From NCBI GenBank assembly GCA_973895155.1, contig OZ316891.1:13175037-13239036 (forward strand): a stretch of DNA of 64,000 nt, in the 5' to 3' direction. The translations under genes were made by a program, and so were the position numbers. The DNA is from Marsupella aquatica (taxonomy: Eukaryota > Plantae > Marchantiophyta). Positions 30,901 to 52,400 of this stretch are shown one piece after another. The notes beneath the pieces were generated by a model. The model was not told where the DNA came from, did no database searches, and saw only the letters and a program-made list of their open reading frames with translations. Each line of letters opens with the position of its first letter. Position 1 is the first letter of the stretch.

Positions 30901-33253
30901 AGCTCCGGCGTCGCTGACTCCGACGCCGAGCTCCCTTATGGTCCAGGCCCGGATAGGCCATCCGGGGAGGACTTAGCATGGGGAGACTTGTGGGCAATGA
31001 GACGTGGCACTAGCAAGGCAAGGGGCCAAGCTGGGGACACACACTAAGGACTTGAACTAGCCTATGGCTGGTTGGGTCAAGGGGAAATGGGCCGGGCTCA
31101 AGGATGGCCGTCCGGACCGTCCGGACCGTCAGATGGGCTTTGAGTTCTGAGGGCTTGGGAGTGAGCTCCTCTTGGCCCAAGGCCAATGGAGTTGATGCCA
31201 TTGGCAACGGATGCTTGGGGCGCAAGTTGCGGCCCGATCCGGGTTGGGCCAGTCGGGGGCCCCGAGCGGCGATCAGACCTGAGGGCCTAGGCATGAGCAC
31301 TAGGTCGGCCCGGTCACAACCGGCTAAGGCACTCCACTTGGGGATGCCTATCAAGAAAGTTATGGGCGTTGCCAGTTGGTGGCCGCGCCCGTTACGCGCG
31401 ATGGGATCCGGGTTGGGGGCCAAATGTTTAGGGACCAAAGCTGGTCCGGGGGTGGCAGGTCTCCAGAAGCATATATGAGGGGAGTGGTGTCTCCCTGGGG
31501 GCTAAGGGCGAGCCGAAGTCGTGAGCCGCAGCGGTCGCGACACTAAGGGAACCCACCAAACGGAAATGGTGATATCTTCTCAACGGGAAGTTTGTTGGAG
31601 GACTTCTTAGGTGCGTTGGAAAGCTCTTGAGGAGGGCTACGCCCTCCTAAGCTCAGCTGGGTCTGGGGGTGCCATGGGTTCTCGTGGTTTGCGGGTGTTA
31701 GCTCCCCCGCTTGCCAAATCCTGCCAAACAGCAGCCAAGCCGCGTTCAACCTCTCAAGGGAGCTTGCGTTGGGGAGGCAAGGCCAAGTAGGTATGGAGGC
31801 TGAGTCCCAAGGGCGTTCAGTCCCTAGACCATCAGTGGGGCGAACCGGGAGCGGTTGTTAGAGTCGGGGCCATTCTGGTCCCGGCGTGTTGAGACAAGTT
31901 TGGGACAAGCTACGCTATTTGGGCCATGAGCATGTCCTGAGGTCAGGGCGGTCAGTTGGTGATGGATAGGTACGAGGGGGAACCCGGGCCGCGCCCAAGG
32001 AAGGAGTTGTCCTAGACGGACAGTGGGCGTGGGTTCTGGTTCTGGCTTATGGCATCGAGAGGACCTATCGTTGACCTATTTACCAACGTCTGTTGAGCTT
32101 GAGTTAGGATGCTAGACTTGGCCAGTTCTAGATCCGGAGGGGTTACTTACCGAGGTGCTTTGTTGCTTGTGCAGATAGTGAGGACCATTGAGTAGCAGTC
32201 GTGTAGGTGAGCAAGTACGGCTTCGTATGGGAGGGGCCGCAGGTGGTGCTAGAGGCACTTGGATGCTTGCTCGAGGTATTCCGTGGAGGCGTTCGGGCAC
32301 CAAGGGCACTTAGGCGCAAGTGCTGGGATTGGTGAGGGCACTGGGTGGCAAGGTCCACCACTCACTAGTAGAAACCGGGGTGTTTTATGACTAAGTGTTA
32401 CGACTGCCCATGACTCCTTGTGACTAAAGTTTGGGGGGTATCAAGCCAGTCGTAATTTTGACATAGAGTCTTATTTAAAGTGACTGAAATCGATTGGTCA
32501 TTTATGTGACTAGGGTTTAAGACATATTTTGTGACTAATAATGACCACATCCGTACTTGGGCATTTTGGGATTAGGAGAAGGTGTAGTCTTATAAATGAC
32601 TGAAAAGTAGTCATTTGTATGACTCAAAATGAGGTATGAATTAGTCACAAAGAGTCAGTGAGGAAGAGTAGCCTTTCGCATATATGACTGGTGCTATGGT
32701 TCAATATCGGAACACAGGTGACTGATTATGACTACCTGGTCTTAAAAGTTTAGAGTATATGGGCACATTAGTGACCGATGATGACTACAGATGACTAATC
32801 ATTCTTAAAAATCTTAAGATTGGGCTAGACTGGTTGGTCTTATTGGGGACCACTTGATATCTTAATGACCCAAAATGACTCATTAGTCTAGTTCACGATT
32901 GCATTCTTTGACCCTTTTGGTCAAAGATTTTGACCAAAAGGGTGAGGCAATTGCAGCCTGCACATAGTACTAGAACCATGACTAATAGACAACTGAAGCA
33001 TAGAAGCATACATTCAAGCACTCAAGCAAACAAGTACACAAGTCTTACATGAAAACATGAGAGACAACATAGTTCTATTAGAATCTTAGAACTCATATTA
33101 ACTATTGAACACACATGCATAATTTCGTACAAACAAAGTTGTCACAACATGATCAGTGGATGATCCAGTGAATCTCAATTCAACTCTGCATTATGAAATA
33201 TCTCGGTAACATTTGGCACCATGGATGCAGTTGTTTGTAAGTTTAGGCTAAAA

Positions 33254-36200
33254 CTACAAACCACACATTTCAGGTGTCCCTATATATTCTGTTGGCCACA
33301 ACACCAAAGAGTTCAAAGCATCTGCAATAGTTGTCTATGGCGGGTCATCATTCAAATTAGGAACTGGCAAAGGGGTCTTTGGCTTCACAAGCTTTGTCAA
33401 CAACACTACAGAATACCCTGTTGGTACTTCTTTGCAATGGAATGTAATCTGCTCTGGGCGCAATTTTCCATACCCTACACACAACTCATTTTGCTCTGGT
33501 GAGAACAATACATACTCAGGATGTGCCTGAGTCTTCAATTCTGCATCAGCTTTACGCTTCTTTGCCGCTGCCACTCTACCACTTGCCCTGGCCCGACCCT
33601 TCACCTTCCGAATAGGTCTCCCAACAGCTGAAAGCTCTACTTCTACTCCACCGTCTGTGGTCACACCCTGTATGTCACCTGCCTGTGATGGAATTTGGGT
33701 CTCCACCTGGCCCTTTGTTTCGCATCCATTCTCACAGGCTTTGGCAACTTCTATGAACTCTTCATATGGATCCAAACTGGGGGTATTCAGTACATTGGTA
33801 ACCTCTGCAATAACAAAATAGCAAGTCAACACCCTATCAACATTTTTGCCTTATCTCCAATCATGGAAACATATAACAAAACACATTTTTTGTGTCATCT
33901 CCAATCATGGAAACATATGAGAAACCTTACCTTCCATTGTTGGGGCCATGGTACCCTCCACATCCCTTTCTGTGGGCTCCACTTCCATTTGCTGTTCAAT
34001 ATTACCCTCTGGATTCATCAAATTGGAGTAATGTGGCAGGTCTCTAGAGCCTCCATTCCATATTGCATTCATTATACATTTGTATTGGTCTTCTTGCACA
34101 CGAATAAGCTTCTGAACATCTTCCTTTAAAGCAGTCAACTCACTTGCCATTTCACTCAATTTCACAGTCACATCATTCTCATGAGACTCCATACATTTCA
34201 CACAATCTGATAAATTGCTAAGAGAACATGATCCACCTCCCTGCAAACACATATGTCCAACAGAGTCAATCCATTACACCTGAAAAAGAATATATGGTCC
34301 CATTGTTCATGCAAACTATGGAATGTGGAGCGAAAAAAACACTATCTGGTATGAGTACTTACTTGGTTTGAAGGATCACTCTGGCCAGATTTTTGCTTCT
34401 GTTTTCTTGCTTCAGCTCTCACCTCTTCTTTTGTAGGGGACTGTCCATTTTGTGCCTTCTGCATACAGTGTAAATGCACACATTATTTGCTCGAACACAA
34501 AAAAACTCAAATACACTGTAGAAGCTAGGTCTGCCAATCCAACGATTATTCTTACCAGCTGCTCTACTATTGGAGCATTCCCTTTCCTTCCTGTCAAGTT
34601 AAGGTTCTGAACGTTGCCACGTGCATATGCCATCTGGGAACTCTTACTCTTGCCGGATTCACTCAAGAAGTGATGGACTAGCTTGCTCCATTGAAGAGGA
34701 TCTGTCAATGGGGGAGCAGGCATTCTTTGGTCCTCTCCACCTTCTTGAAACAACACGTGCAATCTCCACCTCTCATTCTTCAGAATTGTCTTTGCATGAG
34801 CCTGAAGACACTCCATGGCTACTCCATCCGGATGGCCCACATATTTCCATTTTGCGGCTACATTGTCAACAACTTGTTGCCAATCCGCTGGATGCTGCTG
34901 CACAAAATTCACCACACTCAAATCCAGCCATCGCAATATTTCACCTTTCAAGTCAGCCAACCAATGATTCTTCCCTGCAGATGCACTGTTCACCCAACGG
35001 TTGCTCCCAATCTCCACTACTCCTTTCTTGGTTCTGTCAGGTCCTGCATTGCTTTCTGTGGTACTGCTTGGTGTGACAGGTTTAGGATTCGCTAGAACTT
35101 TTGTACTACCCTTTAGTGGACTTATAATGCCCCCTGCATCATCCCACATCCATGTGACATCATACAATAGTAACATCAATACCTTTGTATATGTCAAATA
35201 GTGGATACCAATTGCAATTGTTTATTGTTTCATAAGTGTAACTTACCAGATGCTTTGGCGACACTCTGTGGATAAGAGGCAGGCTCAACTACCTGTACAT
35301 CTTCCCCACCAGCCAACCAATCAGGCTCTGGCCATTGCTCAGAACCATAGGCTACAGTTGTCTCTTGTCCTGCCTCTACTTCAGGTTCATAGTAAACCTC
35401 CTTGTCAGTTACTCCCCAATCAGGATGGGCAGAATCTGCAGTCACATAATTAAGCACTTTAATTAGGTCTTTAACATCACACTAGCATACCCTTTATTTC
35501 CAAAGTAATTTACATAAATGCCAGAATTGAAGGGCAATCCCTACTCACATCTCCAATCGTCTCTTGTTGCTCCATACTGCTCAGTATGTTGTGTTGGTCT
35601 ACCTTGGCCCCGTGTAATGTGTGCTGGTGGTGGACCCGTAACATACACAACAGTGTGCCCAGCAGGTGGTGGTGGTCCATACCCATCCACTTGTGGGGCT
35701 GCTCTCCCCTGAGAGGGTGCACTGTGTGTTGGTGGTGCTCCATACACCACAGTGTACCCCTCGCTGCGTGGGGTTGCTCTAACCTGACCTGTGCTGTGGG
35801 TATGTGTTGTTGCTCTACTTGCAAAGGAGGGTGGGATGTGCCCACCATGTGGTGCAGCTCCATACACAACAGTGTGACCACCTACACCAACAGTTGTTGT
35901 TCCATACCCACTGCTCTGTTGGGTTTTACCTGGAGGTGGAGGTGGAGGTGGTATGTGCCCAGCACGCCCCACTGGTCCGGACCCACGTGCAATGTAATGC
36001 ACTGTGCTTCGCCCTCCAGATGTTGTTGTACTGTGCCCACGGCCCATACCCCGAGTAGCAAGTCCACCTCTCTTAGCCTGCAAGAACATATGTGCAAGGA
36101 CAATAAACTTAAAAGAAGTATCTTCCTCTGACTTGCCACACTCACATGAGCCAAACATATCACTACTGTGATACACTACTTCAACACTTCATAATTACCA

Positions 36201-36470
36201 CAATTTTCTTGGGCTCCTCGACAGTACGCTTGCCCTGCCCATATTCTTCATCATCTGCATCGGGCTCCTCCTCTGGATAGTACTCTACATCATCAAATTC
36301 CTTATGGTTTTCACCGGACCCAACATCTTGCCCATCATCTGCAGAATCTGCCATCGATGGAATGTCCTTCACTGCTAGTCTCTCACTGCGTCACCGAGGT
36401 CCACTTGCACTGTCACTAATGCTTTGCCTAGCCCTTCTGTGCACTACACTTCTCCTGTCTGGGAGCCTGC
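33254..36470 (-). pseudogene. tnpA-like: TnpA-like (Ptta/En/Spm-type) multi-exon gene with a premature stop at 33335-33337; 5' boundary approximate
   Basis: The exon at about 34556-35140 encodes WSKLVHHFLSESGKSKSSQMAYARGNVQNLNLTGRKG, which is Transposase_24-like. The terminal exon reads FHCKEVPTGYSVVLL...PLPVPNLNDDPP*TTIADALNSLVLWP, a Tnp1-like C-terminal motif that continues past the TAG to a stop at 33254-33256. Upstream exons are acidic and Gly/Pro-rich. Confidence 0.72.
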
Positions 36471-36718
36471 AAGCCATCCAAAAGCAACATCCATTGAACA
36501 ACTCTAGTAAACATAGCTACATTCATTCCAATTAATGAGCAAAGTCTGGATAGGTTCTGTGGATGATAATTGTTCCCTTACAAAGCGGAAAATCCCTGTC
36601 TGAGCTCAGCTCCCAAAGCTGCCAGCCTCTCATCAACATATGCTGCACGTATCATGGCTTGCTTTTCAGACTCACTCATCTCATCATCATCTTCTTCCAT
36701 CCTATTCAATGACAAACA

Positions 36719-39700
36719 TTATTGCATACGCATGGTGTCAGGCTCAGCCTCTACAAATGGCTCCTCACCCTCCCAAGCATCCACCCGTGTTAGAGGAACA
36801 TACTCTGTGCTTGTCTGAACAGTACCAACGTCTCCAGTACGTGGTTGTTCAAATGCACTATGTCTATCTAAATGAAACTCTAGCTTTGAGCCTTCTACCC
36901 TACGATTTCTGGGCTGCTTATGACACACTACCCTCCAACCTAGGTTCTCTTCCACATCCAAGAAGAAGGCCTGCTCCACCTGACTGGGATACACAAAAGG
37001 CTGCTCCCATTCGGGCAACTTGGACTTGAAATTGGCAAGCAGAAAGCCATCCCGGTCTCTTTTCATACTGGCCCTGTTACCACGCCACACTTGTCTTACC
37101 CATTCACCCTTCATCAAAATTACAGGAGTGGATGTGGCTCCATAGTCAAGAAGCCAGATATCACTTAGTTCTCCTACATACCCCATCTGCAACACTCCAC
37201 TACTTTCATCAGGGCTCTCATGCTGAAATACACAAATGAGCCCACAATCATATGTTACCCTGGAAGAAGTTGTTTCATCTCTCACTCTATAGTGATTGCC
37301 ATATGCTGCCATCCGTTTGTAAGACTTTACCAGCAACCGTGGAGGATTGGAGAGGAGATAGACATCTACATCCATATTAGGATGGCTTGCATGATGCTCT
37401 CGAACTGTGCATCTCAGCCATTCTGACATGCATGGGAATGTGGTAGACGTGCTTGATTGAATAGCCTTCTGTGCCTCATACTCCCTACACATATAAGTGC
37501 ATGGATTTAGCAATCAGAGTACACATTCTATACATATCTGCAATTTAGAAACCAAGGGCAGCAAAGAAAATTGAAAACAAGTTACATACAGGGAGACCAA
37601 AGTAGGTACTCACTCCAGCCAGGGTTGCATTGCATCAGTGTTTTCCAGAACGTACTGATGAGCCAAGTCTCTAATTTCGATGGTCAGCTTCACTGTGGTT
37701 GCAGCACCTTGTAGGACTTCCCCAGACACCCCTTCTTCTTCATCAGAATTCCATACTCGCCTTGTCACATGCTCGTAATCTGCTAGGTACTCTGTGATGT
37801 AGCCCAGAGTTTCATCTTTTATATAACCCCGAGCCATACTTGCCTCTGGCCTATAGTAAGATCTCACATGACCCTTCATCAACTTCATGTACCGCTCCAG
37901 GGGGTACAACCAACATGCTGTCACCGGCCCGTACTGGTCTATTTCTTCCACAACATGGATGAGCAGATGAGTCATTACATCAAAGAATGCAGGCGGGAAA
38001 TATATTTCAAGATCACACAACAATAGTGCCACATCTTTCTTCAATTGGGGAAACTGTGCAGCATCCCACACCTTCAGACAAACTCTGCGGAACACATCAC
38101 TCAGACGCAGTATAACTTTACGCACAGGCTCTTGCATGAGGCCCCTCAGGCACAATGGCAGGACTTGTTGCATCATGACATGGTAGTCATGGGTTTTCAT
38201 ACTACCAAATTGGAATTTGTTATCCTTCACATGCCTCTTGAATGCACTAGCATAATCTGTGGGAGCTCGGAGTGAACTCAGCCTTGATAAAAAGGTCTGC
38301 CACTCTGTGTCTGTGCAACAATATGGTGCTTGGTACTTCAAAAACACGTTTGCCCTGCTCTGGTGTGATGTAAGCCAAAGGTGGGGTCGAATTCCCCTGT
38401 CCTGTAGATCCATACGTACAGAGCCCGTGTCCTTTTCTCCACTCAAAAATCGGAGTAGACTCTCGCATATGTTCTTCTCTATGTGCATAACATCAATATT
38501 ATGTTTGTTTGGATCAAACTCCTGCAACTCCGAAACATCAAGCAGTGAGCAAATCTCAATCTTCATAATACATACATACTACTTCATACAATCTAACAAC
38601 TAAATTGACTGAATCACATATATGGGTTGTTGGGGAGAGGAGCTTACTCGCCAATACTCCAGCTGCAAGTCCAAAATGGACTGTCGTTTCACACCATACA
38701 ACCTTGCAGGATCCCGTACTCCATCCTCTGCTCCTCCATCTGCATCATATTGTGCCTTGGCAGCCCCCCAAGAACTTATTTGCTCCTTCTTCACTCGAGG
38801 TGGGGGACTGCGGAGCTCCGTGCGCTTGTTAAAATGTGCTATAAGATTGGGTCTACGTCTGTAAGGGTGATCAGAGGGCAGAAATCGACGGTGACCAAGG
38901 TATTTGATACACTTCAAGGACTTTGAATAGTCACTTGTCACATGGGGGCCACATCTTGTGCAAGCTAAATATCCTTTCCCAACCTGGCCTGCAATCATGC
39001 TATGGGCAGGGTAATCTGCAATAGTCAACATTACAATAGCTCTAAGCAAGAATGGATTGGCTTCACCAATCCTCTGCAGCATATCATATGTGAGCACTCC
39101 AGTGTACCATAGCTTTCTCAGTTCCTCTACTAGAGGAGCGAGATACACATCTATATTGGCTGCAACAGCACTGTCTGGCCCTGGAATCAACAATGCCAAC
39201 ATTACAAAGAACCGCTTTGTAGTCAACCATGGGGGAAGGTTGTAATTCAAAAGGGTTACAGGCCAACAATAGTACGCATTGTTCTTCTCGCCAAATGGGT
39301 TCACCCCATCCAATGATAGCCCAAGCCTAACATTCCTTCTCTCCCTAGCAAACTCAGGATACGCATCATCAATCAACTTCCATTGCTTTGAATCTCCAGC
39401 ATGGCGTTGTAGCCCATCTCGACTTTTGTTCTTAGCTGTCCATGTCATCAACTCTGATATGGCACGGCTCCTGAACATTCTCTGCAGTCTGGGAATTATA
39501 GGAAAGTGACGGAGCACTTTTGTAGGTTGCTTGGACTTCCCATTATTCCGGTACCTGTGCTTCCCACATGTAGGGCATGTCAACTTCTTCTCATGTTCGT
39601 TTCTGAAAAGAACATGCCCATCAGGACAGACATGGATTGACTCATAGTTCAGCCCAAGTTTTGATATCAGTCTCTTTGCCTCGTACATGTTTTTTGGCAC

Positions 39701-40465
39701 TAGATTACCTCCTGGCATCACTGTTTTCTACAAGAAGGCCAGAACCTCGGACACAAAGATGTTTGGCACATTGTGGTTCCCACAAATATTCAGAAACATT
39801 AGCACAAATGCTAATTTGGAACAATTGCTTCCTGGGAACAGCGGATTGAAGGCCTCTTGAACTTCGGTTGGGGAGCCAAACATGGTGTCCACTCCAGCTG
39901 CAGCCTGTTGCCCAATCTCGAACTCATCTAAAGACTCGTGGTCATCACCCGGTGCAGTCTCAAACTCTTCTGCATCTTCCATGTCCTCCCGCATTGCATC
40001 CATGTCCTGGAAAATATCATGCACCATTTGCTGAACATTGATCCCTTCGTCTGCAGGCTGCTGAAGGACTTCGGACCCACCCAGTTGAGTCATCACATCT
40101 GCCAACCCACCAGTGAAGAACTGGTCTCGCCTTGCACTATTTGCATTCTCAAAGTCAGCCCTCCATTCCTCATCCGAAGAATCAGCCTCATTCGGATCGT
40201 TTGTAACACGCCAACGAGGGTGTCTCCCATGAATTGCCAAGTGCCCATGAATCTGCCTCAAGACTCTGGTATGGGAGCCATTGCATTGAGTGCAAGGACA
40301 TCTCATTCGTGAACTTGGACCTGACCGTGCCACTTTGGCCTGTTCCCGATTCCAGAGCTTCTGGTCGTGTTGGGAAACCCTCATTGGATGATGTAGAGGC
40401 AACCTGGCAGATGTTGGATGGGTCCAAGGGGGAGGGTGACCTATGGACACTCTTCTAGACTCCAT
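36719..40465 (-). pseudogene. tnpD: CACTA TnpD DDE transposase (Transposase_21, DUF4218, DUF4216) with an in-frame TAG at 39728-39730; exons ~38648-40465, ~37614-38521, ~36719-37484
   Basis: Motifs in order: RCPCTQC..H, IHVCPDGHVLF..CPTCG, LSLDGVNPF, YNLPPW, IADYPAHSMIAG, DVMHIEKN, FPPAFFDVMTHLLIH, WLYPLERYMKLMK..RPEASMARGY, YVGELSDIWLLDY, EQPFVYPSQVEQAFF. ORFs 39728-40465 and 38600-39721 are in the same frame, separated by TTG-TAG-AAA. Confidence 0.93.
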
Positions 40466-40930
40466 CTTAGAGTTCAGAACACAGGCACTCAGATTTAATT
40501 GTCATTTCATTATGAAAGTGGAAAATACATTTCTTGTATAGCTGTGTTCCGATGTTCACACAATCTACCAAAACATATGACATGATACAGTGTAATAAAT
40601 CATGCATAGACTTTCTACAACCACCAAAAAACAAACAAGAAAGGTTCCTGAATTGTGTACCTATTCTCAGGTTACACTGTAACAAAATTCCTAACTGTCT
40701 CAGGGTGTCACCTCCTTCGCTGTCCTCACTTATACTGCCTCAGTCTGCAATGGCCAACCAAGCACGTACATCCATGACCATATCAGAGTCCAATCACCTA
40801 TAGTCATAGACAAACGTGCTTGGCGTGAGAGCAGTATGAGATCTCCTCACGTTATTACCAGAGTTCATCTGGATACCCACCCTGTTCTCGATGGTAGTCA
40901 CACCTGAGGTACACTGGCATGTACATCAGG

Positions 40931-41461
40931 TCATATATCAAGGAGTATGCCCTGGGCATACCAGGGTGGGGTTCGATCTATGCCTACAAGAAGTGGTTGT
41001 AATGCCCTCCACTGAGGGGAGCTAGCTACCAAGTCCCTCCATTGTGTGCTAATTAGTCTATATTTGCAAATGTCTTGTGCGTTTGACCACATAAGAATTC
41101 TGGGCCACACATCCGACAGCATTATATCATCTGGCAAACCAGGCAACAAGGAAGTCCCCACAACATTATGCTCTTCTATTTCATCTGCTGAAAAATAAGA
41201 TTCATCGTCTCTTGCATCCTCAGGCGGTGCCAAAATATGTTTCAACACCAACCCATGCAGGAGAGTCCAAACAGTGGCCAACCATGTGGCAACCCACAAG
41301 AGGAGCCTACATAGCGTCGGGTGATGTAGGAAAGGCAACATACCCACCAAAGTCTGCCGCCAAGATTTGAGCCCACCCCCAGTAAGTTTACAGTGACACC
41401 CCCAGGCAGCAGGAAACAACAATCCGCCAATAGTAAAATAAGTCCAACTGCGACCAACCAT
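40931..41461 (-). CDS. CACTA cargo: F-box-motif protein with a hydrophobic N-terminus (176 aa)
   Basis: SLLPGLPDDIMLSDVWPRI...ICKYRLISTQWRDLVASS matches the plant F-box consensus (LPGLPDD...RxVSxxWRxL). It is preceded by a hydrophobic segment and an acidic stretch. ATG at 41461, open frame. Confidence 0.62.
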   Translation of the reverse strand: MVGRSWTYFTIGGLLFPAAWGCHCKLTGGGLKSWRQTLVGMLPFLHHPTLCRLLLWVATWLATVWTLLHGLVLKHILAPPEDARDDESYFSADEIEEHNVVGTSLLPGLPDDIMLSDVWPRILMWSNAQDICKYRLISTQWRDLVASSPQWRALQPLLVGIDRTPPWYAQGILLDI

Positions 41462-41552
41462 AACAAGCTACGTTAGTTCAAATATCACATTTATTTAAAA
41501 GATGTGATTTGTACAAAAAGCTTGTCTCAAAACTGATGCTACTACGTACTCC

Positions 41553-42425
41553 TCACTCTGATTCAGAATCGCTAATAACCCCTTCCTCACTTGTTGTCAC
41601 ATAGTTTTCACTGTGAGGATCCTGACCCTTCCGTGGCCAGGCCTCAAAAAGATCATAGTCCATTGGGTTTTGACGCTTCCCAGCTGCTACTGATTCCACA
41701 AGCCAAGCATATGAAACCACAAACACATTATGGGACATGACATAAAAGCGAATGTCACCCTTCCCAAACTTGCGGCAGGCTTTGGGATATGACTTAGTAA
41801 TGACATGAGTGGTGTCCTCTGTTATATTCTCCTCCACTATCCCACCTAGGTCAAGCACTGTGGACTTGTACACTTTGCACTTAACCTCTCCAATTCCCGC
41901 CTCCACAAAAACCATGCTCAGCCCTTTCAAAATGGGGGTTGGTTGCTTCATCTCCTCAGCCAACATACTCTTCAGCCTTCTTGAGCTTTGTCCTGTGTTG
42001 AGTACAGGTCCATATTGGACATCAGCAAGCCGTGCCTTTACTTCCCAGACTTCTTGTTCAGCCCAAGCTGATGCAGTAGCTTCTTCATCCTCCCACAATT
42101 CATATTGCTCAGTATCCTGTACAATCTGATGTGCTATGGAATCTGTGATCCAAGAGGCCTCAACTACTTTTAGGCCTCGCTCAGTAATTGCAGAATTCAT
42201 GTAGGACCATGACCACTTCTTTATCACTGATAGCCATGTCCCTGCAACAACATGTGTAGTCTCTGGAGTGATGTCCTGAAGTACAGTGCCATGGAGCTCA
42301 GAGAATCGTTTCTGTACAGTTGGCCAATGCACTTTGGTCAACCCATGCTGGCCATGGACCAAAATGGCTCTGACCCCTGTAAACACTGCTGGGTGGTCAA
42401 ACTTCCTACGTTTCCCAGGCTCCAT
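41553..42425 (-). CDS. CACTA cargo: tandem BRCT-domain protein (~290 aa)
   Basis: Two repeats carry BRCT hallmarks: VFTGV...HGTV...ETTHVVA...VVEASWITDSI...Y and ILKGL...LGGIV...DTTHVIT...VVSYAWLVESV...Y. There is an NLS-like KRRK at the N-terminus and an acidic Ser-rich C-terminus. First ATG at 42425. Confidence 0.82.
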   Translation of the reverse strand: MEPGKRRKFDHPAVFTGVRAILVHGQHGLTKVHWPTVQKRFSELHGTVLQDITPETTHVVAGTWLSVIKKWSWSYMNSAITERGLKVVEASWITDSIAHQIVQDTEQYELWEDEEATASAWAEQEVWEVKARLADVQYGPVLNTGQSSRRLKSMLAEEMKQPTPILKGLSMVFVEAGIGEVKCKVYKSTVLDLGGIVEENITEDTTHVITKSYPKACRKFGKGDIRFYVMSHNVFVVSYAWLVESVAAGKRQNPMDYDLFEAWPRKGQDPHSENYVTTSEEGVISDSESE

Positions 42426-43009
42426 GTACACACACCCTATGTGATGAGAGTGAATATTGGAAGAATGGGTTCACCTGCCAATAGAAGGACACCAAAATTC
42501 CTGCTTTTTAAGTTGATCCGGTCCACTGTTGCTCAAGTCCAATTTTGATAGGTACAGGGGATATGTGAACAATAAGTACTAGACCTACACCGATGTAGGA
42601 CATTGTTTGAGTATATACTAGGAAATCCATATCAAAGGTGAAATGAAGTGCAACCAACTTGTCATGGCCGCACATACATATTTTTTTGTAAAGGAGGATA
42701 CATTCAATGACAAACTTATAGGGCAATTTGATTAATTGCATGCCTGATGCTTACAACTTTGAAGTCCTGTTTTAATTTAGCAGTCTGATGAGAGTGTTTG
42801 TGAAAATGACCACTCAGTCTAAATACTTCCAAGAAGGCTTGTAAGGATAAGTTTTTATAGGCATGTACCCAGCCAATAACGCCAGGGCACAGGATAAGTG
42901 CTCCCTGTATAAACTCGCCTACCCAAGTCCTGTTCAAAATTGGAATCTCTGCAATCTCCAAAAATAGTACATCCACATTAGGTGCCCTATGCATGTACAA
43001 TGTTCAGCT

Positions 43010-43690
43010 TCACAGCCAAGATATGTGATCTCTCACAGGAGTGCGCGAGGTAGGATCAATGGCATGGCGATGACAATAAAATATCCATCGATCAACACCA
43101 TGTGCAGAGTGATCATAGATTTCCCTGTCACAAGCATAACCCTGTGCTTGACAATCTTTCAAGCAATGATAGTGCCACATAGTGGGACACCTAGCACAGT
43201 GGACTATGTCAGCCCAGTACTCATCATCATGCTCACAACATGCCTTGCACCTATGAAGTGGGCAAGCTATGGCATGAGCAGGCAAACACTCAAAACATAA
43301 AAACCTTACACAAAAACGGTCTGGACATTTCCTAACATTCGGTGCAGCATCAACAGAGCCCTCATAGGACCCCAACTTCCCACACTGTGCACACTTAGCC
43401 TGCTTCTCCAAACAATCAGTGCACATCCAGTCTCCCTGGTGTGTTGACGGGAGGCCCACCCCTGGACAGTTGTTTTCTGCAGCAAGGTCAGACTCCGGGT
43501 TGAGGTGGAAATGCCTCATGCAAGGGCCCTCACAGATGACCAAGCTCCCACCATCGTCACAAATGGCACAACAATGAGCTGCCTTCTGGAAAATCTGACT
43601 TGCAGAGAAGTTAGTAACATGTGGCCCAGGTACACCTGTGTTGCTCACCTCTATCACATGCTTTTTCGCTGGAATTTTGGGGCGTGCCAT
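43010..43690 (-). CDS. CACTA cargo: EDM2-type atypical PHD-finger protein (226 aa) with an H3-tail-like N-terminus
   Basis: CAICDDGGSLVICEGPCMRHFH...WMCTDC...CAQCGKLGS...ACPLHRCKAC...CARCPTMWHYHCL...IFYCHRHAIDPTSRTPVRDHI follows the Cys/His spacing and TPVRDH ending of the EDM2/NSD-type PHD array, as recalled. The first ATG (43690) follows a pyrimidine-rich tag| acceptor. Confidence 0.85.
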   Translation of the reverse strand: MARPKIPAKKHVIEVSNTGVPGPHVTNFSASQIFQKAAHCCAICDDGGSLVICEGPCMRHFHLNPESDLAAENNCPGVGLPSTHQGDWMCTDCLEKQAKCAQCGKLGSYEGSVDAAPNVRKCPDRFCVRFLCFECLPAHAIACPLHRCKACCEHDDEYWADIVHCARCPTMWHYHCLKDCQAQGYACDREIYDHSAHGVDRWIFYCHRHAIDPTSRTPVRDHISWL

Positions 43691-44441
43691 ACCTACGCAT
43701 GAGACAGACAGTACAATTAAGTAGACGGTACAGGCAATACATTTTGGCAGACTGTACAGACAATGTATTTTAGCAGACTTCACAGAAAGTAAAATTTAGC
43801 ATTTAAGGTACAAAGGCATTAACTACTGCAATGAATTGCAATGCCCACACAAGGATGCAGAGCAAACATACTTTTGGTTTGTTGAGCCCACACACAAAAC
43901 TGAACCCCTAGTACAATTGCTCCACCAACACCTCAAATTCGTGGATGTGATTCACCAAAAAAGATCTCCAACAACATTTCATGCATTTGAATCACATACA
44001 ATAGTCATCACATGAAAAATAGGCATTTTTCCAACAAGATTGGGATCAAGCAGTGTGATGAGGGTTGTACTTTATACATCCTATATAGGCTATGATAGTG
44101 AGACAAATAAGTCATACGTGTAAGGGAAGGGATGTTTGCAGGTTATCGCATGGCCCATTAATTCTGTCATAGAATGTTACAATGTTGGCCAAGTTAAAGT
44201 AGACATTAAAGCAGTCTTTGAATGGAGAATTTAAAGAGAGCTTGCCTAATTCTTACATTAGAATATTCCACTTAGTGCAGCCAAAATAGGATAAGTTATA
44301 TACTCTGGACCCTAAACACTTTACCCAAAATTGCTCATACTTCAAAATTTTAAATTAATATCCTCGGTGCTTAAGTCAGAGCATTAAGTGTGAGGTCATT
44401 CCACTCTGGTCTGTGCATACGGGGTGACAAACTGTGCTCCT

Positions 44442-45194
44442 CTACAGCGTGTGATCCAAACATGTGTAGACACCAAAAGCACCAGCCCTGGGGAATCACT
44501 TAGAGTAAAACCCCTAAAACACGTGAGAACAAACCAATGAAATTTGAAAAATAAATTAAAAAATAAATTCAATTAAAATTACCCTTGTACCCTTAATTAT
44601 ATGGCTTTGACACATTTTTAAATACCTTACTGAATATAAAAACTAATATTTTTTCCAAAATTGGATTTTTAAACGCCTTTACTACAAATTTTTGATTATA
44701 ATTATTATGCCAACAAGATTAAAAAGAACCTTCATTTGTTCGCACCCCGTTCTAATAATCCAACGAGTGATTCCCCAGGGAGCACCAGTGGTGGGGTCTG
44801 GGAGGCCAGGACAAGTGACATCGCCAGGCACACTGCAAGATGGTGAGTGGTTCCAGATGATACATTGTGCTCTATGCAAAAATCGACATCCAAGAGAACG
44901 GTCATCCAACTCTGGCCAAGATGCCCGACAGGCAGGACAGTCATATTGGCAACTGTGTACACACCCTTGGGCCCTAATTTGTGGCGGGTCATGTACGAGA
45001 GACAAAAATACCAAGGATGTTGTGAAGGGTGGAGAAGTAGGTACAGGCTGGCTGTAGTTATTCTTGGCAACAACAGGGTACTCAAAGTACCATGCAGACT
45101 GGGCAGGAAGGATCCCAAGTCTGACATACTCAAGGCGCAACCTCTCTGCCTTGCGTGCAAGCCACACATGTTCAGCATTGTGGGTGCTCACCAT
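44442..45194 (-). pseudogene. Possible fourth CACTA cargo ORF, Cys/His-rich, interrupted by the MITE
   Basis: The ORF from ATG 45194 has clustered Cys/His (GCVHSCQYDCPAC...GCRFLHRAQC..WNHSPSC...TC). Removing the MITE and one TSD continues the frame as ...TTGAFGVYTCLDHTL*. No family recognised. Confidence 0.4.
44486..44780. mobile_element. 295-bp MITE with 15-bp TIRs and an 8-bp TSD, nested in the CACTA
   Basis: TIRs CCCTGGGGAATCACT (44486-44500) and AGTGATTCCCCAGGG (44766-44780). TSD AGCACCAG at 44478-44485 and 44781-44788. The interior is AT-rich. Confidence 0.9.
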
Positions 45195-48100
45195 AACTGT
45201 TGCTTTTGTTCAGATGTCTTGTGTTCACGTCCTCCAACGTCCTTCGATCAGCAAGGTCAGTAGGAGCTATAATTGCCTCTCCAACAACAACCAGAAGAGA
45301 GACTAATCAGTTCCCACTCACTGTGTCATTCCCTTGGTTCCAACTAGAGGTCATAGTATAAACATAGCATGAAACACTCCTAATGAACAATGTTGCAAAC
45401 TACAATATCCAGAAAGACTGAAAATCTCACCCTGCAGTGAGCAGCAGAGAGGTAGTTCACTGCTTGCAAGAGTGAACTGAGCAGGAGTGTAGGCAAACTG
45501 GCATTCAGTTGGCACAACTATATTGTGCATCAGCACAAAAGCTCTTATAAACATGATATGCATGAAACTCGTCGATAAAATAGAAGGAAACTAAAGAGTG
45601 GATGCAAAACAAAGTAAATTACAGCACAGGTTGGCACAGGAAGTGGCCCGCAGCACTCAGTCAAACTTCATAACCAAAGTACAGACTGTGTTCACAATAA
45701 GGAGCTTCCTAAAAAAGAGGCCACCAAAAGGGGGTCGCAGAAAGGTCACTTGACAAAATGAAGATGGGAATGAAAAAACTGCCTCCAAGCTCAATACATG
45801 TGACCAAATATATATTCAAAGAGGATCCCCAACAGAGCAGAAGACAGTATGATCCCAATTACTATGTTCTATCCATAACTACATGATCTGAAAAATGTTA
45901 TGAGCAGACACGAAGAAGCCAGCAAAACAGAGGAAACAGAGCAAAACAGAGCATGGATCGAGAAAATGAACAACATCTAGTTCTTACGCAAGAAACTCAA
46001 TGACAGCAAACAAATTCACTAGCCCCAGGAAGTGAAAAGCAAATGAGTACCAAGCCAACCAACTAAGACTGACTATGAAATGCAATGAAACCTGAGTGAA
46101 ACAATTGTTCACACATGCACGGGACATTGGAGGTTGAATACAACAGTCACCGCCAAGAATGTATGCATGAAACAGACATGAAGATATCGAATATGTATAT
46201 GCATTCCAGACTTTCATGCCAGACAGTGGCGAAAGTTAAAATGAACTAGTTTTAACTTTATGACTCTCAGAATGAAAATATTTTATTTCAGAATTATATT
46301 CTATTTCAGAATTGGTTCAACTCTGTGGATTGTGAACTGTCCCACTTGGAATTCAACTATTTGGGCTATCTAAGAATGCAGTTCAAAGGACATATAGTGC
46401 AAGACAGTTAGAGATCATGTCTTCATTCCGACGTCCAATTGGACATTTTATGTCACAAACTGCGCAAGCAATGAAGTCCATGGAATTCTCTCAAAAATGC
46501 AGCTTTTGTTGTTGGTAAAAGCAACTACGAGTTTCCTATTGAGTGCCCCCGACGCACAATACTACCAGAGGCCCACTTTAGACTGCGATGGCTATCATTA
46601 CTTATTGGGAACTCGGATGCATATATATTGAAATGCTTCGCAGAGTGTTTCGACCACAAAAAACCTAACATCAATCTCAACATTCAGTCCCGTCTCAGAA
46701 TTGATTTAGAGGAGGCTTAGCATTCAGTACAGTGTCAACAATCAGTCTTGTCTTCACATTCAACATCCGATTGCAAGGGGCTTCGATGAAAGCACAAGAT
46801 AGAGCTATACAAGAAGAGATAGAGGAAGGCACCTGTGTGTTCGGAGAAAATATGAAGCTCCAAAGACCACCCTAAACTCTCCAAGATGTAGGGTCGATGT
46901 AGGTTGCAGGTAGAAGCTCACAAGCCAAATATTGGGCAAATGTGGGCTCCAACTATACTGTAGTGTGTCGTGGCTTTGCTCTTGCCTCCTATAGCTTAGA
47001 ATGGGCCGGGGTTACCAAACAACTGTTATTCTATTGAAATTGGCTACCGAGAACTCTTGTCTTTCTGCACTCAAACAACACCAAAATGAAGTCTTAGTAC
47101 CAGTGAGACCAAGAACACAAAAGGAAGGGGCACATTCAAAGACAAAGTGATTCATACCACATTCAAAGACAAAGCGGAAAGAATTGGAAAAACCAGAGTG
47201 AAAGAATTGCGAATGAATATCTGTTCACACTGTATGCACAGGATCTTACATTTAGGGTGACTCTATTTGCAAAAGCCATAAAACAGAGAAACAGAGAAAC
47301 AGAGACCAGAAAACAGAGAAACAAATTAAGCATGCATCGCTAAAACGTAAAAACTTCATAGTGTATCATTTCTCTAAACAAAGGGCCACATACTCTGGTC
47401 TCTACAGAGAAAGCAAATCCACCTACGATGAGAAGATTGGTACAGAACAGGAGAGAAAAGGGAGACCAGAACAAATATTTAAAATCAGAACAAGAAGACT
47501 GGCAATTTAAGGAACCCCAGGGAGCCTATTGCATTTGAATCACATACAGGACCCTAGCATACTCATAGTGGGGCACTAGATACTGGGCAAACTCAAGGTA
47601 ATGGTCAGAATGAAACCAGAAAGGTCTTGAAGTTGCCAGGTCCCGCCTCGTTCCTCTCGCACTTTGCAGAAAACAAGATGCAAAAAACTAACCTATAGCT
47701 CCAACCGGCTGTAGTTGACTGAGCTGCAGCAAGTTGTGAAGACAGGTCGTCCCCAGCGGCACCTTGTCCCTGCCTTTAGCTCGTCCTTCACCGCAAGTCT
47801 TTGAGCTGCTCAACAAACACAGCAGCTCAGCACCACAACTAATAGATGGCTAAATAATGGGATCATGTGCAAAGGGAAATGAGCCATGAAGCGAAGGGAA
47901 GCGATCAGTTCCGGCACCCAACAGCTGAAATGACCTCACTGACAGTTGGCATCTATGCAGATAGATCGAGGTCTTGTCACTAAGTTAGACACAATTTATG
48001 GTGTGAGTGTGAGTGTGAGTGTGAGTGTGAGGTTCTAGAGAAGGCTAAAGGACCTCTGCAATGCAAAATGTGGTGCGAATGGAGCCGCGAGGTGAACAAT

Positions 48101-48852
48101 AAGTTGGTGATAAAACCGGGCAGCATACATAACACCAGACCAAAGACGCAAATGACCAAACCGAAAGACGCTTTCACCAACAATGCATATTCAGGACATG
48201 AGTGAATGGAAAGAAGCAAGAGAGATACAAGGATTACAAAAAAAGACTAGGCCCTCGTCTGTCCAGACTTCTGTAGGACTCCACTAACTCCATTGTCCTT
48301 CTCAGATCCCCAAGAAGTCCATGAAGCAACGAAGAACCTGGGCAATGTGACTTAAGGACAGTAGCAACAGTACATACACATAATAATGAAAGGCTGGTTT
48401 GGGGCAGCACAAGCAAGCAATGCGACCCCCTTTCACTCACCGTCCCACGACCAATGATAACGGATGAAAAACTGAACCTGAAATGTAGGTCGCGCGTTCG
48501 ACCTGAAAGTGGTCAGCTCCAAGGCTACCTACCTACCCCTTCGTTGCTCCGCAGCTGAGCTCAATGAAGTATAGAAAGTGGGTGAGGATCCCGTCCTAGT
48601 TCAGCTCCTGTGCCCTCATGGCATTTGAAACAAAAAGAGCCAAAACCAATGCAGAACCTCAGTAGGATGAACGACTCCCCGACAGAGACTAACTGTCCCT
48701 TCTCTCTGGCAGCTCACAAATCCACAATTGCAATGGTTCTGCTCAGTCAGCCAAGAACACCCTAAAATCTATGAAAACAACGGGCGACAGAGGAGTTTGT
48801 AAGTGATTCTCACTTGAAATTCCGCCAGCTGAATCTTCCTTTTTAGAAGGTC

Positions 48853-49420
48853 TGCTAACTCCGCAGAATGACTCTCGGATGATTAGAGCAATGTAAGTGG
48901 CAGAGCTCACTCCCTCTGAATGTCTCTACTCATCGAAGAGTAGAGCTCCTCCCACCTTCGACCTCCCCAACTCCCCAAAGGTCAGTGGCATATGCGCAGT
49001 CACCTCCTTCGCACACCGCAATTGACCGAGAATCCCTCCTCCTAAAGCGCACAATGTTATGCCCAAGTGCGATCAGGTGGCAGAGTCGACAACAAATTGA
49101 GAAAGAGTAACTCGGGAGCGAAGTGATTCAGAGCAGGTGGCTCTTGCTAACTCCGCAGAATGACTAGTAGATGATTAGGGCAGCGTAAGGGCAGAGCTCA
49201 CTCCATCTGAATGTCTCTACTCATCATCGAGTAAAGCTTGTCCCACCTTCGACCTCCCCAACTCCCCAAAGGTCAGTGGCATCTGCGCAAACGAAGCGGG
49301 AGCACACCGCAATCGGTTCAATTCCCTCCTCCGAAAGCGCAAAATGTGATGCCCGAGCACGATCAGGTGGCAGAATCAACAGCAGCGAAGTCTTCGAGCA
49401 GGTGGCTCTTGCTTTTCCCT
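48853..49420. repeat. ~293-bp diverged tandem duplication in the CACTA 5' non-coding region
   Basis: tgctaactccgcagaatgact...cccaccttcgacctccccaactccccaaaggtcagtggca...gatcaggtggcaga occurs at about 48853 and about 49146. Confidence 0.85.
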
Positions 49421-52400
49421 CGCAAAAACTAGCAGTCGACACTAAACTGCACACCAGCAGTCACTCCTTGGATCCCTTCCCGTTGATCGGCATTTTTACC
49501 CTAACAAAAGTTCACACATGTTAGACGTCACTTAACACTTAGCACAAAACGGTCAGTAAGACCTAGTAAGTGTGCATGAGATTTTGTTTGTGGCCCTTTT
49601 AGTTTGGTGATTTGGGTATTGGTTATAAAAACACCCAATGTCACCGGGAGTAAGACAACACCCACCCTTATACAAGAATGCCTAAATTTGATTAAACCTT
49701 ACAATACCCATTTGATCACAATTAATTAAATAATGAGACCACATATTTAGCGAGCAGGCCTAGGTAGCATAGGGTACTTTAGGGCCGGGCCCTCCATTGT
49801 GTGGCTGTTTGGCCTATAGGGTATAGGCCAGGAATACAGATCGACAGGTCGGAGTTTAGCTCCGGCCCAATTGTTCACTTCAAGGTTTAATTAGTTAATT
49901 AGGTCGGGCCCGGGTTACACCGTACGTCCATACCGTGCACCATAATATGTGTTGGCTATATAGTAACCGAACTCATCCTTATCCTTATTACAACCCTAAA
50001 CATACTAATAGGGATAAAAGAAGGTAAGTATGACCCCAAATTATGCCAAATCCAAATGGTAACATGACACATATTAGGTGCACAATATGTAATGGTCAGT
50101 TTAGTGACTAAAATGGCTTGCCTTCCTTCCCGCCCTTCCTAATTGGTCATAGGAATAAGACAGCGACCAAAAAGTGAACAGTTGTATATGTTTTGGAGTC
50201 TTATGTTGACTTAAGAATGACTCAGAAGTCGTATATAGTCACATAAATATGACTGAAGTGTGGGCTGCGCACAATGGTGGTCAAGCCTGTCATAAGTGGT
50301 CGGGTCACAAAACACCCCGGTTTCTACTAGTGACTGTAATTCACAAACAATCAATCAAAAATGGTAGAAACACGATTTCTCCTGGAATGTGTAAGCGAAA
50401 ACCATCAAAAAACTCAATTCCTCCACATTCAACCTTCCGTTTGATAAACCAAAAAGATCATCTCAATCAGATCAGTCTCCTCTATCTTTCAAGCATTCTC
50501 TTTTGTACAAGCACACACCAAGACCACTGGGAGTCTCAAACCCATTGTTACCCCCAGGTTGCAGAAATTTGATTTTACTTCATCACACACACATTCCTTG
50601 GATGAACATGGGGGTCCACGGATTAATTATTAAGTTCCAAACTAAGTATATAACTCAATAGAAAAGAGAGTCAATTTATTTCAATGCTTTTTAAGCTAAA
50701 TTTAAAGCTGCAATGCACCAAATCTGTACTTTGCCATCAAAGTCTACCCTTCATAACCTACTCCCTAGCAGAGTGAAGCCATAGGTAAACAAACTGATAA
50801 CAGAAAATTTGATATTTAGACTATGCTTGCATGGGGAGTCTGGGTATAAGGGGGCCTTCCTATGCATACGGGTGGGTCTTATCAAAGTGCTTTTGTGTTC
50901 GCCTTCTCTTGGAGCAAATCTCTTCCCTCCAAAAAGGACCATGTTGATTATAGCTCTCCAGTGCCTGAAAAGTTGTTGCTTGTCATTGTTCTCATGAAAT
51001 AGTGCTAGTGCCAGTCTCAAGAAAGAAAAGCTATATAGGATTGGTAGCTTAGAAGTCTTCACATGTGCTTGCAAACACTTATTGTTGCTACAAAGACAGA
51101 GTAGGAAAATTAACAACGGGCTCTTGAAACAAACAATTTGTGTTCAAAATGTACTTTGACTAGTTCAATTATCTTTAATCTTGATTGAGAGTCATTAGAT
51201 CTAAGAAAAATTCTCTTACTAGTCATCACATCTGAGAAAGTTTTTGTAGTTATCAATAGATTTGTGGTTCCAAACCTAGCCCAAACTTAGATTAGATATA
51301 GTCTGTTGGTGGTGAGGAGATCTCAATCTTTCACAATCACCACAAGACAGTGATGATATAGTGTCCAATTGAGTTCTTTGGTGAGGATGCTCATGACTGT
51401 GTAAGTATGAATAGCTTGACAGAGTAAGAGTGATCATGGTTCTCCAACAGAAGAGTCTACTTAGAAGGGTACTAAGCAAATCAATAACTATAAGGCCATG
51501 GAATTGAAGCTTGTAAGTACTCTTTACAGAGCCACCAACATTGGTTGCTGCTGATCTCTTGTTGAATTGTCATGGTAAAAATGGAAAGATTTGAGCATTA
51601 TGCCACCTAAGCATGACTCACGGTTTTGAGAGTTTGTAATGTATCTAAAGTTTGAAAAATGGGTATGAGTTTCTAGAGACCATGATTGAATGTCAAGTGT
51701 CAATATCTGATTGGCTCGACTAACTACCATAACTTGCATTACAAATGCTGAAATTATTTAACAATAATCAAAGATTTCCATAAAAGTAGTCCAACCTATA
51801 TTTCAGTTGGGTTCAGCAAAATGATGGATCAAATGTGAGCTGGAGATGGAATAAAAAATGCATGACATATATTTTTACGTCAAATAGGTCAATCGTTTAC
51901 AGTGAAGATAGATAATATTCATAGTTTCTTTATTAATAGCATATGAATATTTCTATTAGACTAGGATTGCACCAAATATCCTAAAATGTACACTAAGTTA
52001 ATTTGCCAAGGCCATGGATTGCTCAGTCTCTTCCACTAGATCGACTTGAATAGACCACTCTCACTACCGCTACCATTCCTCTTGTCATCTTGCTATCTCA
52101 GTGAATTCATGGAAGTTGACTCCGCTACATTTGTATGGGGAGGTTCTTCTAAATCAAAGTCAGTAGTACAATTATCCCACTTCACTACAAAAGGATAAGC
52201 CTTTAGTGTTAATTAAAGAATAATGTCATTTATTGGGAGAGTGAGTGTTAGAGGTGGTGTTTGATCTCTGGCCCTTGTTGTGGTCTTATCCATTATTTAT
52301 ATGCATGATCGGGTGCATGACTGGCAACTTGTTATTTCTGCTAATTAAAGAGCACAAGCAATGTCCTCACAAGGCTTTCTAGGTTCATGTGCAGTTTGAA

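What the first reader, a model, noticed from the sequence alone, without database searches (positions are those of the whole stretch)
43661..43690. Histone H3 N-terminal tail mimic (M-ARPKIPAKK) fused to the transposon's PHD reader
Seen: the first ATG of the PHD ORF gives MARPKIPAKK. Known: H3 begins MARTKQTARK. After Met removal, A1, R2, K4, A7 and K9 are identical and R8 is conservatively replaced by K. Both regulatory lysines therefore keep their register at a free N-terminus, which is what PHD readers and many SET enzymes recognise. Viral histone mimics are established. Inference: the tail could be a decoy substrate for H3K9/H3K4 methyltransferases or their readers, or could bind the protein's own PHD as an autoregulatory switch. 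The match is only 9 residues and could simply be a nuclear localisation signal.
Basis: partly seen in the sequence, partly recalled or inferred. Interest (0 to 1): 0.8.

Follow-up and report, generated by a model that had tools for sequence, protein, structure and literature searches.

The report
Histone-tail mimic in plant transposon reader
A plant cut-and-paste transposon carries a small gene, likely captured from a host chromatin-reader gene, whose protein starts with a nine-residue stretch matching the tip of histone H3 that is kept across distant relatives and likely plugs into a histone-tail pocket to interfere with host silencing.

Summary
MARPKIPAKK (43661-43690, minus strand) begins a 226-aa stand-alone EDM2/NSD-type PHD-cassette gene inside an 18-kb CACTA element with intact ends. 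In 25 family members (PHD1-region identity median 42%) the H3 register is conserved: R2 24, K4 23, A7 17 (+5 S), A1 16 (+6 S), K9 13 (+6 R); the linker behind it is not. H3(1-9) outscores all but 1 of 104,624 host-protein 9-mers on the family profile. Classical NLS, AT-hook and NuRD motifs are not conserved. A K9-methyltransferase decoy is therefore unlikely. Best reading: an R2/K4-centred H3-like ligand for a histone-tail pocket, more likely a host reader than its own PHD1. No binding or expression is shown. The scan noted a similar tail-plus-finger layout in fungal mobile genes (AI notes, not tested here). Nine literature searches found no such transposon protein.

The parts
43661..43690 (-). 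H3(1-9)-like N-terminal motif, M-ARPKIPAKK
   Evidence: Sequence; family conservation
43010..43690 (-). 226-aa stand-alone EDM2/NSD-type PHD-cassette gene (motif, variable linker, conserved F/W-S-x-x-E-x-x-Q helix, three PHD-type zinc modules, DHISW end)
   Evidence: Pfam PHD-1st_NSD 1.4e-5 and PHDvar_NSD 0.024, both under the curated cut-off; AIRE PHD1 and NSD2 hits; EDM2 among longer homologues; AF2 pLDDT 87.8; ESM Atlas first hit PHD_NSD 0.92
43412..43570 (-). PHD1 (Cys41-Cys93): keeps the R2-binding acid (E54) and W88, lacks the K4-binding Asp before the first Cys
   Evidence: Alignment to AIRE PHD1, AIRE contacts, column counts
43693..43721 (-). Predicted 3' splice site (AG at 43694-43693, about 58 nt free of other AG, branch-like hexamer 43721-43716), ending 2 nt before the ATG; likely a 5'-UTR intron
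   Evidence: not confirmed by RNA
32363..32391 (.). CACTA terminal inverted repeat, left in window; ACT target duplication at 32360-32362
50304..50332 (.). CACTA terminal inverted repeat, right in window; ACT target duplication at 50333-50335
44682..45194 (-). Cys/His-rich ORF of the same cargo cassette, no Pfam match
41553..42425 (-). Tandem-BRCT cargo ORF
   Evidence: Pfam BRCT 8e-13, 2 stretches
40931..41461 (-). F-box cargo ORF
   Evidence: Pfam F-box 1.1e-4
36719..40465 (-). CACTA (tnp2) transposase in four frames; an in-frame stop at 39728-39730 separates the first two
   Evidence: Transpos_assoc, Transposase_21, DUF4218, DUF4216

Best explanation
A CACTA transposon carries a gene for a small stand-alone PHD-finger cassette, likely captured from an EDM2-type host gene, whose conserved first nine residues match the R2/K4/A7/K9 pattern of histone H3 and likely act as an H3-tail-like ligand that would occupy the tail pocket of a host chromatin reader. 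Shown: the element, the gene, its relationship to EDM2-type cassettes, the conservation of the motif and its H3 register, and the loss of the K4-anchoring Asp in PHD1. Inferred: the start codon, expression, that the ~25 relatives are also transposon-borne, that the cassette tethers the protein to chromatin, and that the tail binds a host reader that tolerates N-terminal extension (a PHD or an MSI1/RBBP4-type WD40 pocket). In this model the protein is an adaptor or decoy that blunts silencing of the element or steers it on chromatin.
For: Position counts among 25 motifs: R2 24, K4 23, A7 17 (+5 S), A1 16 (+6 S, 2 T), K9 13 (+6 R). In the alignment the commonest residue holds 96% of the R2 and K4 columns but 13-41% of query positions 11-27. 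23 of the 25 motifs were placed by MAFFT; P0002 and P0071 were set by hand to their own N-termini. H3(1-9) scores 17.1 bits on the family profile: 1 of 104,624 distinct 9-mers from 136 host-type proteins, 1 of 3,457 basic 9-mers and 10 of 22,680 permutations of H3's own letters score as high. Two members carry T3 (ARTK in P0008, TRTKQ in P0014). 0 of 110 host-type proteins have the motif within 50 residues before PHD1. 11 of 25 meet the published H3TM rule iM-Z-R-x-K, against 48 of 20,996 human proteins; the seven H3TM peptides tested there bound H3K4me3 readers when methylated, and some bound NuRD when unmethylated (PMC8166343). The motif is kept in all three main subclades of a clade apart from host EDM2 (21 of 21 tips, support 0.992). 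NLS, AT-hook and NuRD consensus motifs are not conserved.
Against: The 25 sequences share one ancestor, so the likeness to H3 is one event (uncorrected p about 0.0004-0.002) and a reader could have matched other histone tails. The family consensus is ARPKVKAKK: P3 in 12, T3 in 2, K6 in 14 and R8 in 4 of 25, a basic pattern that a DNA-binding arm or import signal could also give. 12 of 25 lack a free A1, which most H3K4 readers need. Three members lack K4 or the whole motif: P0002, P0003, P0156. Two host-type proteins hold a similar internal 9-mer, P0030 at 18.3 bits and P0013 at 16.8, and three start with M-A-R-x-K. No host partner was identified or modelled.
Confidence: 0.42

Rival explanations
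1. The motif is a basic nuclear-import signal or DNA/nucleosome-binding arm, and its likeness to H3 is incidental.
For: Net charge +2 to +6 in the first ten residues. P3 and K6 are the commonest residues where H3 has Thr. It works with N-terminal extensions. Basic stretches precede the PHDs in some short host-type proteins.
Against: Classical monopartite NLS in 4 of 25 leaders, bipartite 0, AT-hook core 0. Fixed R at 2, K at 4 and small A/S at 1 and 7 is more specific than import signals usually are (own knowledge). 1 of 3,457 basic host 9-mers reaches 5/9 identity to H3, against 10 of 25 family motifs.
Confidence: 0.25
2. The tail folds back onto the protein's own PHD cassette as an autoinhibitory pseudo-ligand, like the histone-mimicking linker of BAZ2B, and is displaced by real H3.
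For: The 28-48-residue spacer is long enough and variable. PHD1 is neutral to acidic (0 to -8) and keeps the R2-binding D/E (26 of 27) and W88 (23 of 27). In the full-length AF2 model residues 4-9 rise above pLDDT 50 with a strand bridge at 6-7 while 1-3 and 10-24 stay below. Precedent in PMC5663869 (abstract).
Against: The Asp matching the AIRE D297 K4 anchor is His in 24 of 27, and the neighbouring Asp of host EDM2 is Pro/Ala in 25 of 27. The model of residues 1-102 shows no strand in the tail. In the full model A1 and R2 are the least confident residues, the reverse of canonical docking.
Confidence: 0.2
3. The tail is a decoy substrate for H3K9 or H3K4 methyltransferases (KYP/SUVH, ATX) or for K9me readers such as CMT3.
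For: K4 in 23 and K9 in 13 of 25; A7 conserved; one member has ARKT. Internal ARK[ST] mimics are methylated in G9a (PMC8166343).
Against: R8-K9 occurs in 2 of 25 and position 10 is unconserved. K9 is replaced by R in 6 of 25, which cannot take the mark. P3 next to K4 in 12 of 25 departs from H3. That K9 enzymes want Arg before the target Lys is recalled knowledge.
Confidence: 0.08
4. The ATG is internal: an upstream coding exon is spliced to the acceptor 2 nt before it, so the motif is not N-terminal in this copy.
For: A good acceptor sits right before the ATG, and the frame is open for 35 codons upstream.
Against: A Met lies 1 or 3 residues before the motif in 19 of 25 members and 7-8 before it in the other 6, with unconserved sequence upstream. 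In locus L002 an in-frame stop lies shortly upstream and another directly behind the best acceptor-like site. The four other first ATGs of the cassette and transposase have an AG 0-11 nt upstream, as expected of UTR introns, though a nearby AG is common by chance.
Confidence: 0.05

Closest known systems
H3 N-terminal mimicry proteins (H3TMs; Chen et al. 2021, PMC8166343, parts 1-3 of 7 read)
   Same: Starts iM-Z-R-x-K; nuclear chromatin-type protein; the window protein and 11 of 25 family members meet the rule.
   Different: Transposon-encoded and plant; the likeness runs on to A7 and K9; it is fused to its own PHD cassette; 12 of 25 members carry an N-terminal extension; binding untested.
EDM2 / EDM2-like PHD cassette (Arabidopsis; PMC3632883 and PMC7529245, passages read) and NSD PHD1-3
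   Same: Same atypical tandem PHD cassette. EDM2 binds H3K9me2-marked chromatin and affects transposon silencing.
   Different: Lacks the RFD domain and the methyltransferase-like and other C-terminal parts; only 226 aa; a basic H3-like leader replaces the acidic leader; the pre-Cys Asp is lost; forms a separate clade.
VANC anti-silencing proteins of VANDAL transposons (PMC5735166, abstract read) and En/Spm TnpA (PMC13547354 passages; bioRxiv 10.64898/2026.08.24.746577 abstract)
   Same: Accessory protein encoded by a plant DNA transposon beside the transposase; a plausible role in countering silencing; EN/SPM co-option of a host heterochromatin-regulator domain has been proposed for TnpA.
   Different: No sequence relation was seen in any search; those proteins bind DNA motifs, this one is a histone-reader fold with an H3-like tail; anti-silencing activity is not shown here.
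BAZ2B histone-mimicking linker (PMC5663869, abstract read)
   Same: A basic H3-like segment on the same chain as a PHD finger.
   Different: The BAZ2B segment is an interdomain linker acting through lysine-rich stretches; here it is an N-terminal motif in fixed H3 register, and self-binding is unproven.
Influenza NS1 ARSK mimic (as described in PMC8166343)
   Same: A parasite-encoded H3K4-like motif that could engage host chromatin factors.
   Different: NS1's motif is four residues at the C-terminus of a viral protein; this one is nine residues at the N-terminus of a transposon protein with its own reader domain.

Membership tests
H3TM (H3 N-terminal mimicry protein) | Begins iM-Z1-R2-x-K4 with Z a small residue | tested here: met
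   Window protein yes; 11 of 25 family members; definition
H3TM (H3 N-terminal mimicry protein) | The Met is the true initiator and is removed | tested here: inconclusive
   Met position conserved and in-frame stop upstream in L002, but an acceptor lies 2 nt upstream in the window and the start was not mapped
H3TM (H3 N-terminal mimicry protein) | Peptide binds H3K4 readers or is methylated at K4 | not testable with these tools
   Needs peptide arrays, ITC or methylation assays
H3K9-type mimic (G9a ARKT class) | A-R-K-[S/T] around the target lysine | tested here: not met
   Window has AKKH; 1 of 25 has ARK[ST], 2 of 25 have R8-K9
NuRD interaction motif (RBBP4 ligands) | RRKQxxP or RK(x)xxPxK/R consensus (PMC11602157) | tested here: not met
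   0 of 25 for each. H3 itself binds the same RBBP4 face without this consensus (abstract listing), so WD40 binding is not excluded
Classical nuclear localisation signal | K[KR]x[KR] or bipartite basic clusters (patterns recalled) | tested here: not met
   Absent in the window leader; 4 of 25 monopartite, 0 of 25 bipartite
AT-hook | R-G-R-P core (pattern recalled) | tested here: not met
   0 of 25
EDM2/NSD-type PHD cassette | Tandem atypical PHD modules homologous to EDM2/NSD | tested here: met
EDM2 (full-length) | RFD domain before, and methyltransferase-like and Pro-rich regions after, the PHDs | tested here: not met
   226-aa frame; 14 of 27 aligned members end at or just after the DHISW-type motif; RFD is present in long homologues P0016 and P0163
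H3K4me0-reading PHD (AIRE/BHC80 type) | Acidic residue two before the first Cys (AIRE D297) | tested here: not met
   His in 24 of 27
H3K4me0-reading PHD (AIRE/BHC80 type) | Acidic residue after the third Cys for R2 (AIRE D312) | tested here: met
   D/E in 26 of 27
CACTA (En/Spm) transposon | CACTA termini, inverted repeats, 3-bp target duplication, tnp2 transposase | tested here: met
Transposon anti-silencing factor (VANC-like) | Causes loss of silencing marks on cognate elements | not testable with these tools
   Needs transgene expression with methylome or ChIP read-out

The most novel reading that the evidence does not exclude
A family of plant CACTA transposons captured a host heterochromatin-reader cassette (EDM2 type) and evolved a histone-H3-tail mimic on its front end, making a self-contained reader-plus-decoy that hijacks host H3-tail-binding silencing complexes: viral-style histone mimicry used by a transposon against its host, carried in a high-copy cargo cassette with BRCT and F-box genes.
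Probability: 0.3. Interest if true: 0.85.

Novelty: new variant of a known kind. Interest (0 to 1): 0.62.

Why it matters
Few transposon-encoded counters to host silencing are understood, and those read about here (VANC, TnpA) act through DNA motifs. A transposon protein that joins a captured histone reader to an H3-tail mimic would be a different strategy, one known from viruses. It is cheap to test: a 12-residue peptide, a 25-kDa protein, and natural variants with and without a free N-terminus or K4. Even without mimicry, this is an undescribed (in nine searches) stand-alone EDM2-derived gene family riding in a CACTA cargo cassette.

Tried and rejected
No whole genome is held for this window, so copies could not be counted or compared. 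The run search listed 7 holders, none on record as RNA: no RNA holder listed, which is no evidence on expression. The four runs laid were contigs, and none of the joints shown (15 rows; 99 more not shown) lies at the predicted acceptor. Copy-to-copy variation at the motif codons remains unexamined. The complex prediction of residues 2-31 with residues 25-226 gave no verdict (score 0.01, mark 0.34, alignments not used, peptides untested by the tool): no evidence either way. The N-terminal 22-mer found nothing in the PDB at E<=10. A donor-site scan between 45600 and 43700 printed no site at the threshold used. Fold searches gave only PHD/PZP relatives and could not show where the tail sits; the 'pdb_via' library was busy each time. 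Only 2 related loci came from metagenomes, 1.5-1.9 kb, with no similarity to the window outside the PHD gene, so a transposon context for homologues is not shown. Two of 27 aligned members were left out of motif counts: P0011 (no leader) and P0156 (no alignable motif). Six members with under 120 cassette residues were left out of the tree. Literature searches listed no paper on a transposon-encoded EDM2-type PHD or transposon H3 mimic; CACTA+BRCT+F-box+PHD+transposase gave 0 papers; PMC13547354 has 0 hits for PHD, EDM2 or BRCT in its main text (supplements not read and could bear on this). Subscription papers are not covered. Rejected: K9-methyltransferase decoy as the main reading, NuRD-consensus motif, AT-hook, classical NLS.

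Full report
Observation. The minus strand at 43690-43661 encodes MARPKIPAKK, the start of a 226-aa frame ending at 43010. It is the only in-frame ATG that opens this frame; two other in-frame ATGs within 320 nt upstream close after 7 and 9 codons. Five of nine residues equal H3(1-9) and R8 is K. On its own the match is modest: 24 of 15,120 permutations reach 5/9, and the 22-mer finds no PDB chain at E<=10.

Setting. The window is land-plant DNA (BES1_N and chloroplast-type S1/EF-Ts genes). The gene lies in a CACTA element from 32363 to 50332 with a 33-nt, 94% inverted repeat and an ACT duplication on both sides. On the minus strand the element holds, in order, a Cys/His-rich ORF with no Pfam match, the PHD gene, a tandem-BRCT ORF, an F-box ORF and a tnp2 transposase in four frames, the first two separated by an in-frame stop. 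In four public runs of two studies, summed contig depth over 40756-45587 is several- to tens-fold above that over the transposase (for example 861-4,633 against 327-746 in X2), and 110 contigs of run X3 leave the left end into differing flanks. The tool warns that this depth is not a copy number; it suggests that the cargo cassette is more widespread than the transposase.

The protein. Residues 41-207 are an EDM2/NSD-type tandem PHD cassette: Pfam PHD-1st_NSD and PHDvar_NSD below their cut-offs, AIRE PHD1 and NSD2 in the PDB, EDM2 among longer homologues, an AF2 model at pLDDT 87.8, NSD2 PHDv-C5HCH at Z 5.3, rmsd 2.5 over 75 residues. Three searches gave 26 short relatives; 14 of the 27 aligned sequences end at or just after a DHISW-type motif, and many others are truncated or frameshifted, as decaying transposon copies would be (inference). 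In a FastTree tree of 90 cassettes the 21 family members long enough to include form one clade (support 0.992) apart from 69 host-type cassettes (midpoint root, so donor and order of events are not established).

The motif is conserved. In 25 members (27 less P0011, which has no leader, and P0156, which has no alignable motif; P0002 and P0071 set by hand) the counts are A1 16 (S 6, T 2), R2 24, P3 12 (T 2), K4 23, V5 7, K6 14, A7 17 (S 5), K8 10 (R 4), K9 13 (R 6). Pairwise identity over the PHD1 region has a median of 42%, and the linker behind the motif has no residue above 41%. 21 of 25 match [AST]R.K..[AS]. H3(1-9) scores 17.1 bits on the family profile; 1 of 104,624 host-protein 9-mers, 1 of 3,457 basic ones and 10 of 22,680 permutations do as well. 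None of 110 host-type proteins has the motif within 50 residues before PHD1. Exceptions are two isolated internal look-alikes in P0030 and P0013 and three related short host-type proteins that start M-A-R-x-K. Because the family has one ancestor, the likeness to H3 is one event kept by selection, not 25 independent ones.

Is it N-terminal? An acceptor-like AG ends 2 nt before the ATG. A Met stands 1 residue before the motif in 13 members, 3 before in 6 and 7-8 before in 6, with unconserved sequence upstream. Locus L002 has in-frame stops upstream. The other first ATGs in the element also follow an AG closely, which fits UTR introns; EN/SPM elements are known to use alternative splicing or split genes (PMC13547354, passages). 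The ATG is therefore very likely the start. 11 of 25 members meet the H3TM rule iM-Z-R-x-K against 48 of 20,996 human proteins (PMC8166343). But 12 of 25 keep the motif, or most of it, behind an extension, in more than one subclade, so the partner does not strictly need a free amine on A1.

Mechanism. The best-kept residues are R2 and K4, the two side chains that PHD pockets read (PMC2261226 passages; PMC8166343). In the AIRE model backbone bonds come from residues 2, 4 and 6, so P3 is compatible with strand pairing (inference). The K9 side is weak: R8-K9 in 2 of 25, ARK[ST] in 1 of 25, which argues against a K9-methyltransferase decoy. For self-binding, PHD1 keeps the R2 acid (26 of 27) and W88 (23 of 27), but the K4-anchoring position is His in 24 of 27 and the Asp found next to it in 34 of 42 host sequences is Pro/Ala in 25 of 27. 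The full model gives residues 4-9 pLDDT of 50 or more with a bridge at 6-7; the 1-102 model gives the tail mean pLDDT 77 but no strand. Neither is canonical docking. Classical NLS (4 of 25), AT-hook (0) and NuRD motifs (0; PMC11602157) are not conserved. I therefore commit to an H3-like ligand for a host tail-reading pocket that tolerates extension (0.42), ahead of a basic import or DNA arm (0.25), autoinhibition (0.20), methyltransferase decoy (0.08) and an internal motif (0.05). All binding steps are inferred.

Comparison and novelty. It meets the sequence definition of an H3TM and works, if at all, like viral or cellular H3 mimics. It is not EDM2 (no RFD or C-terminal domains), and showed no relation to VANC or TnpA. 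EDM2 binds H3K9me2 chromatin and affects transposon silencing, which makes its capture by a transposon plausible. Nine full-text searches listed nothing on a transposon-encoded H3 mimic or EDM2-type cargo gene; subscription journals and supplements were not covered. The scan holds no note on this sequence or genome but has AI notes on fungal genes, one said to be spread by mobile DNA, with an H3-like start before a PHD-like finger; these were not tested here and are not counted as support. Papers seen: PMC8166343 parts 1-3 of 7; passages of PMC2261226, PMC3632883, PMC7529245, PMC11602157, PMC13547354; abstracts of PMC5735166, PMC5663869 and bioRxiv 10.64898/2026.08.24.746577.

Verdict. New variant of a known kind; interest 0.62.

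Noticed in passing
window 40756-45587: The four-gene cargo cassette (Cys/His-rich ORF, PHD, tandem BRCT, F-box) has several- to tens-fold more summed contig depth than the transposase or the 45.6-50.3 kb part in all four runs, which suggests many non-autonomous or sister elements carry it. No paper held CACTA+BRCT+F-box+PHD+transposase.
   Followed up: partly
window 44682-45194 (-): Cys/His-rich ORF of about 170 aa, no Pfam match, in one of the deepest parts of the cassette; possible unknown zinc-binding cargo gene.
   Followed up: no
window 39728-39730 (-): In-frame stop between the transposase-associated and Transposase_21 frames; this copy is probably non-autonomous unless the stop is spliced out.
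   Followed up: no
window 35541-36188, 34412-35221, 33335-33850 (-): Pro/Gly-rich repeat ORF and two further ORFs in the 3' part of the element with no Pfam match, perhaps exons of a TnpA-like accessory gene.
   Followed up: no
window 48853-49435: Two direct repeats with a period of about 290 nt, 75-92% alike, in the element's 5' subterminal region.
   Followed up: no
window 32363-45587: CpG is depleted (observed/expected 0.26-0.36) while CHG is not (about 1.0), against 0.52-0.72 in the flanks and the element's 5' part: a trace of long-term CG methylation.
   Followed up: no
P0013 and relatives P0015, P0017, P0023, P0025, P0030: A host-type clade with a C-terminal PHD cassette; P0013 shares the family's F-S-x-x-E helix before PHD1, and P0013 and P0030 hold internal motif look-alikes: a candidate donor lineage.
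   Followed up: partly
P0046, P0047, P0124: Short host-type EDM2-like proteins, related to each other and far from the family in the tree, that also start M-A-R-x-K: possible convergent H3TM start.
   Followed up: no
window 52528-53220 (+): Looks by eye like a Copia RT/RNase H fragment with a stop; no Pfam hit at E<=0.01.
   Followed up: no
window 24510-28085 (-), 1827-2318 (+): Ordinary host genes: S1/EF-Ts polyprotein with an acidic repeat linker, and a BES1/BZR1 exon.
   Followed up: no
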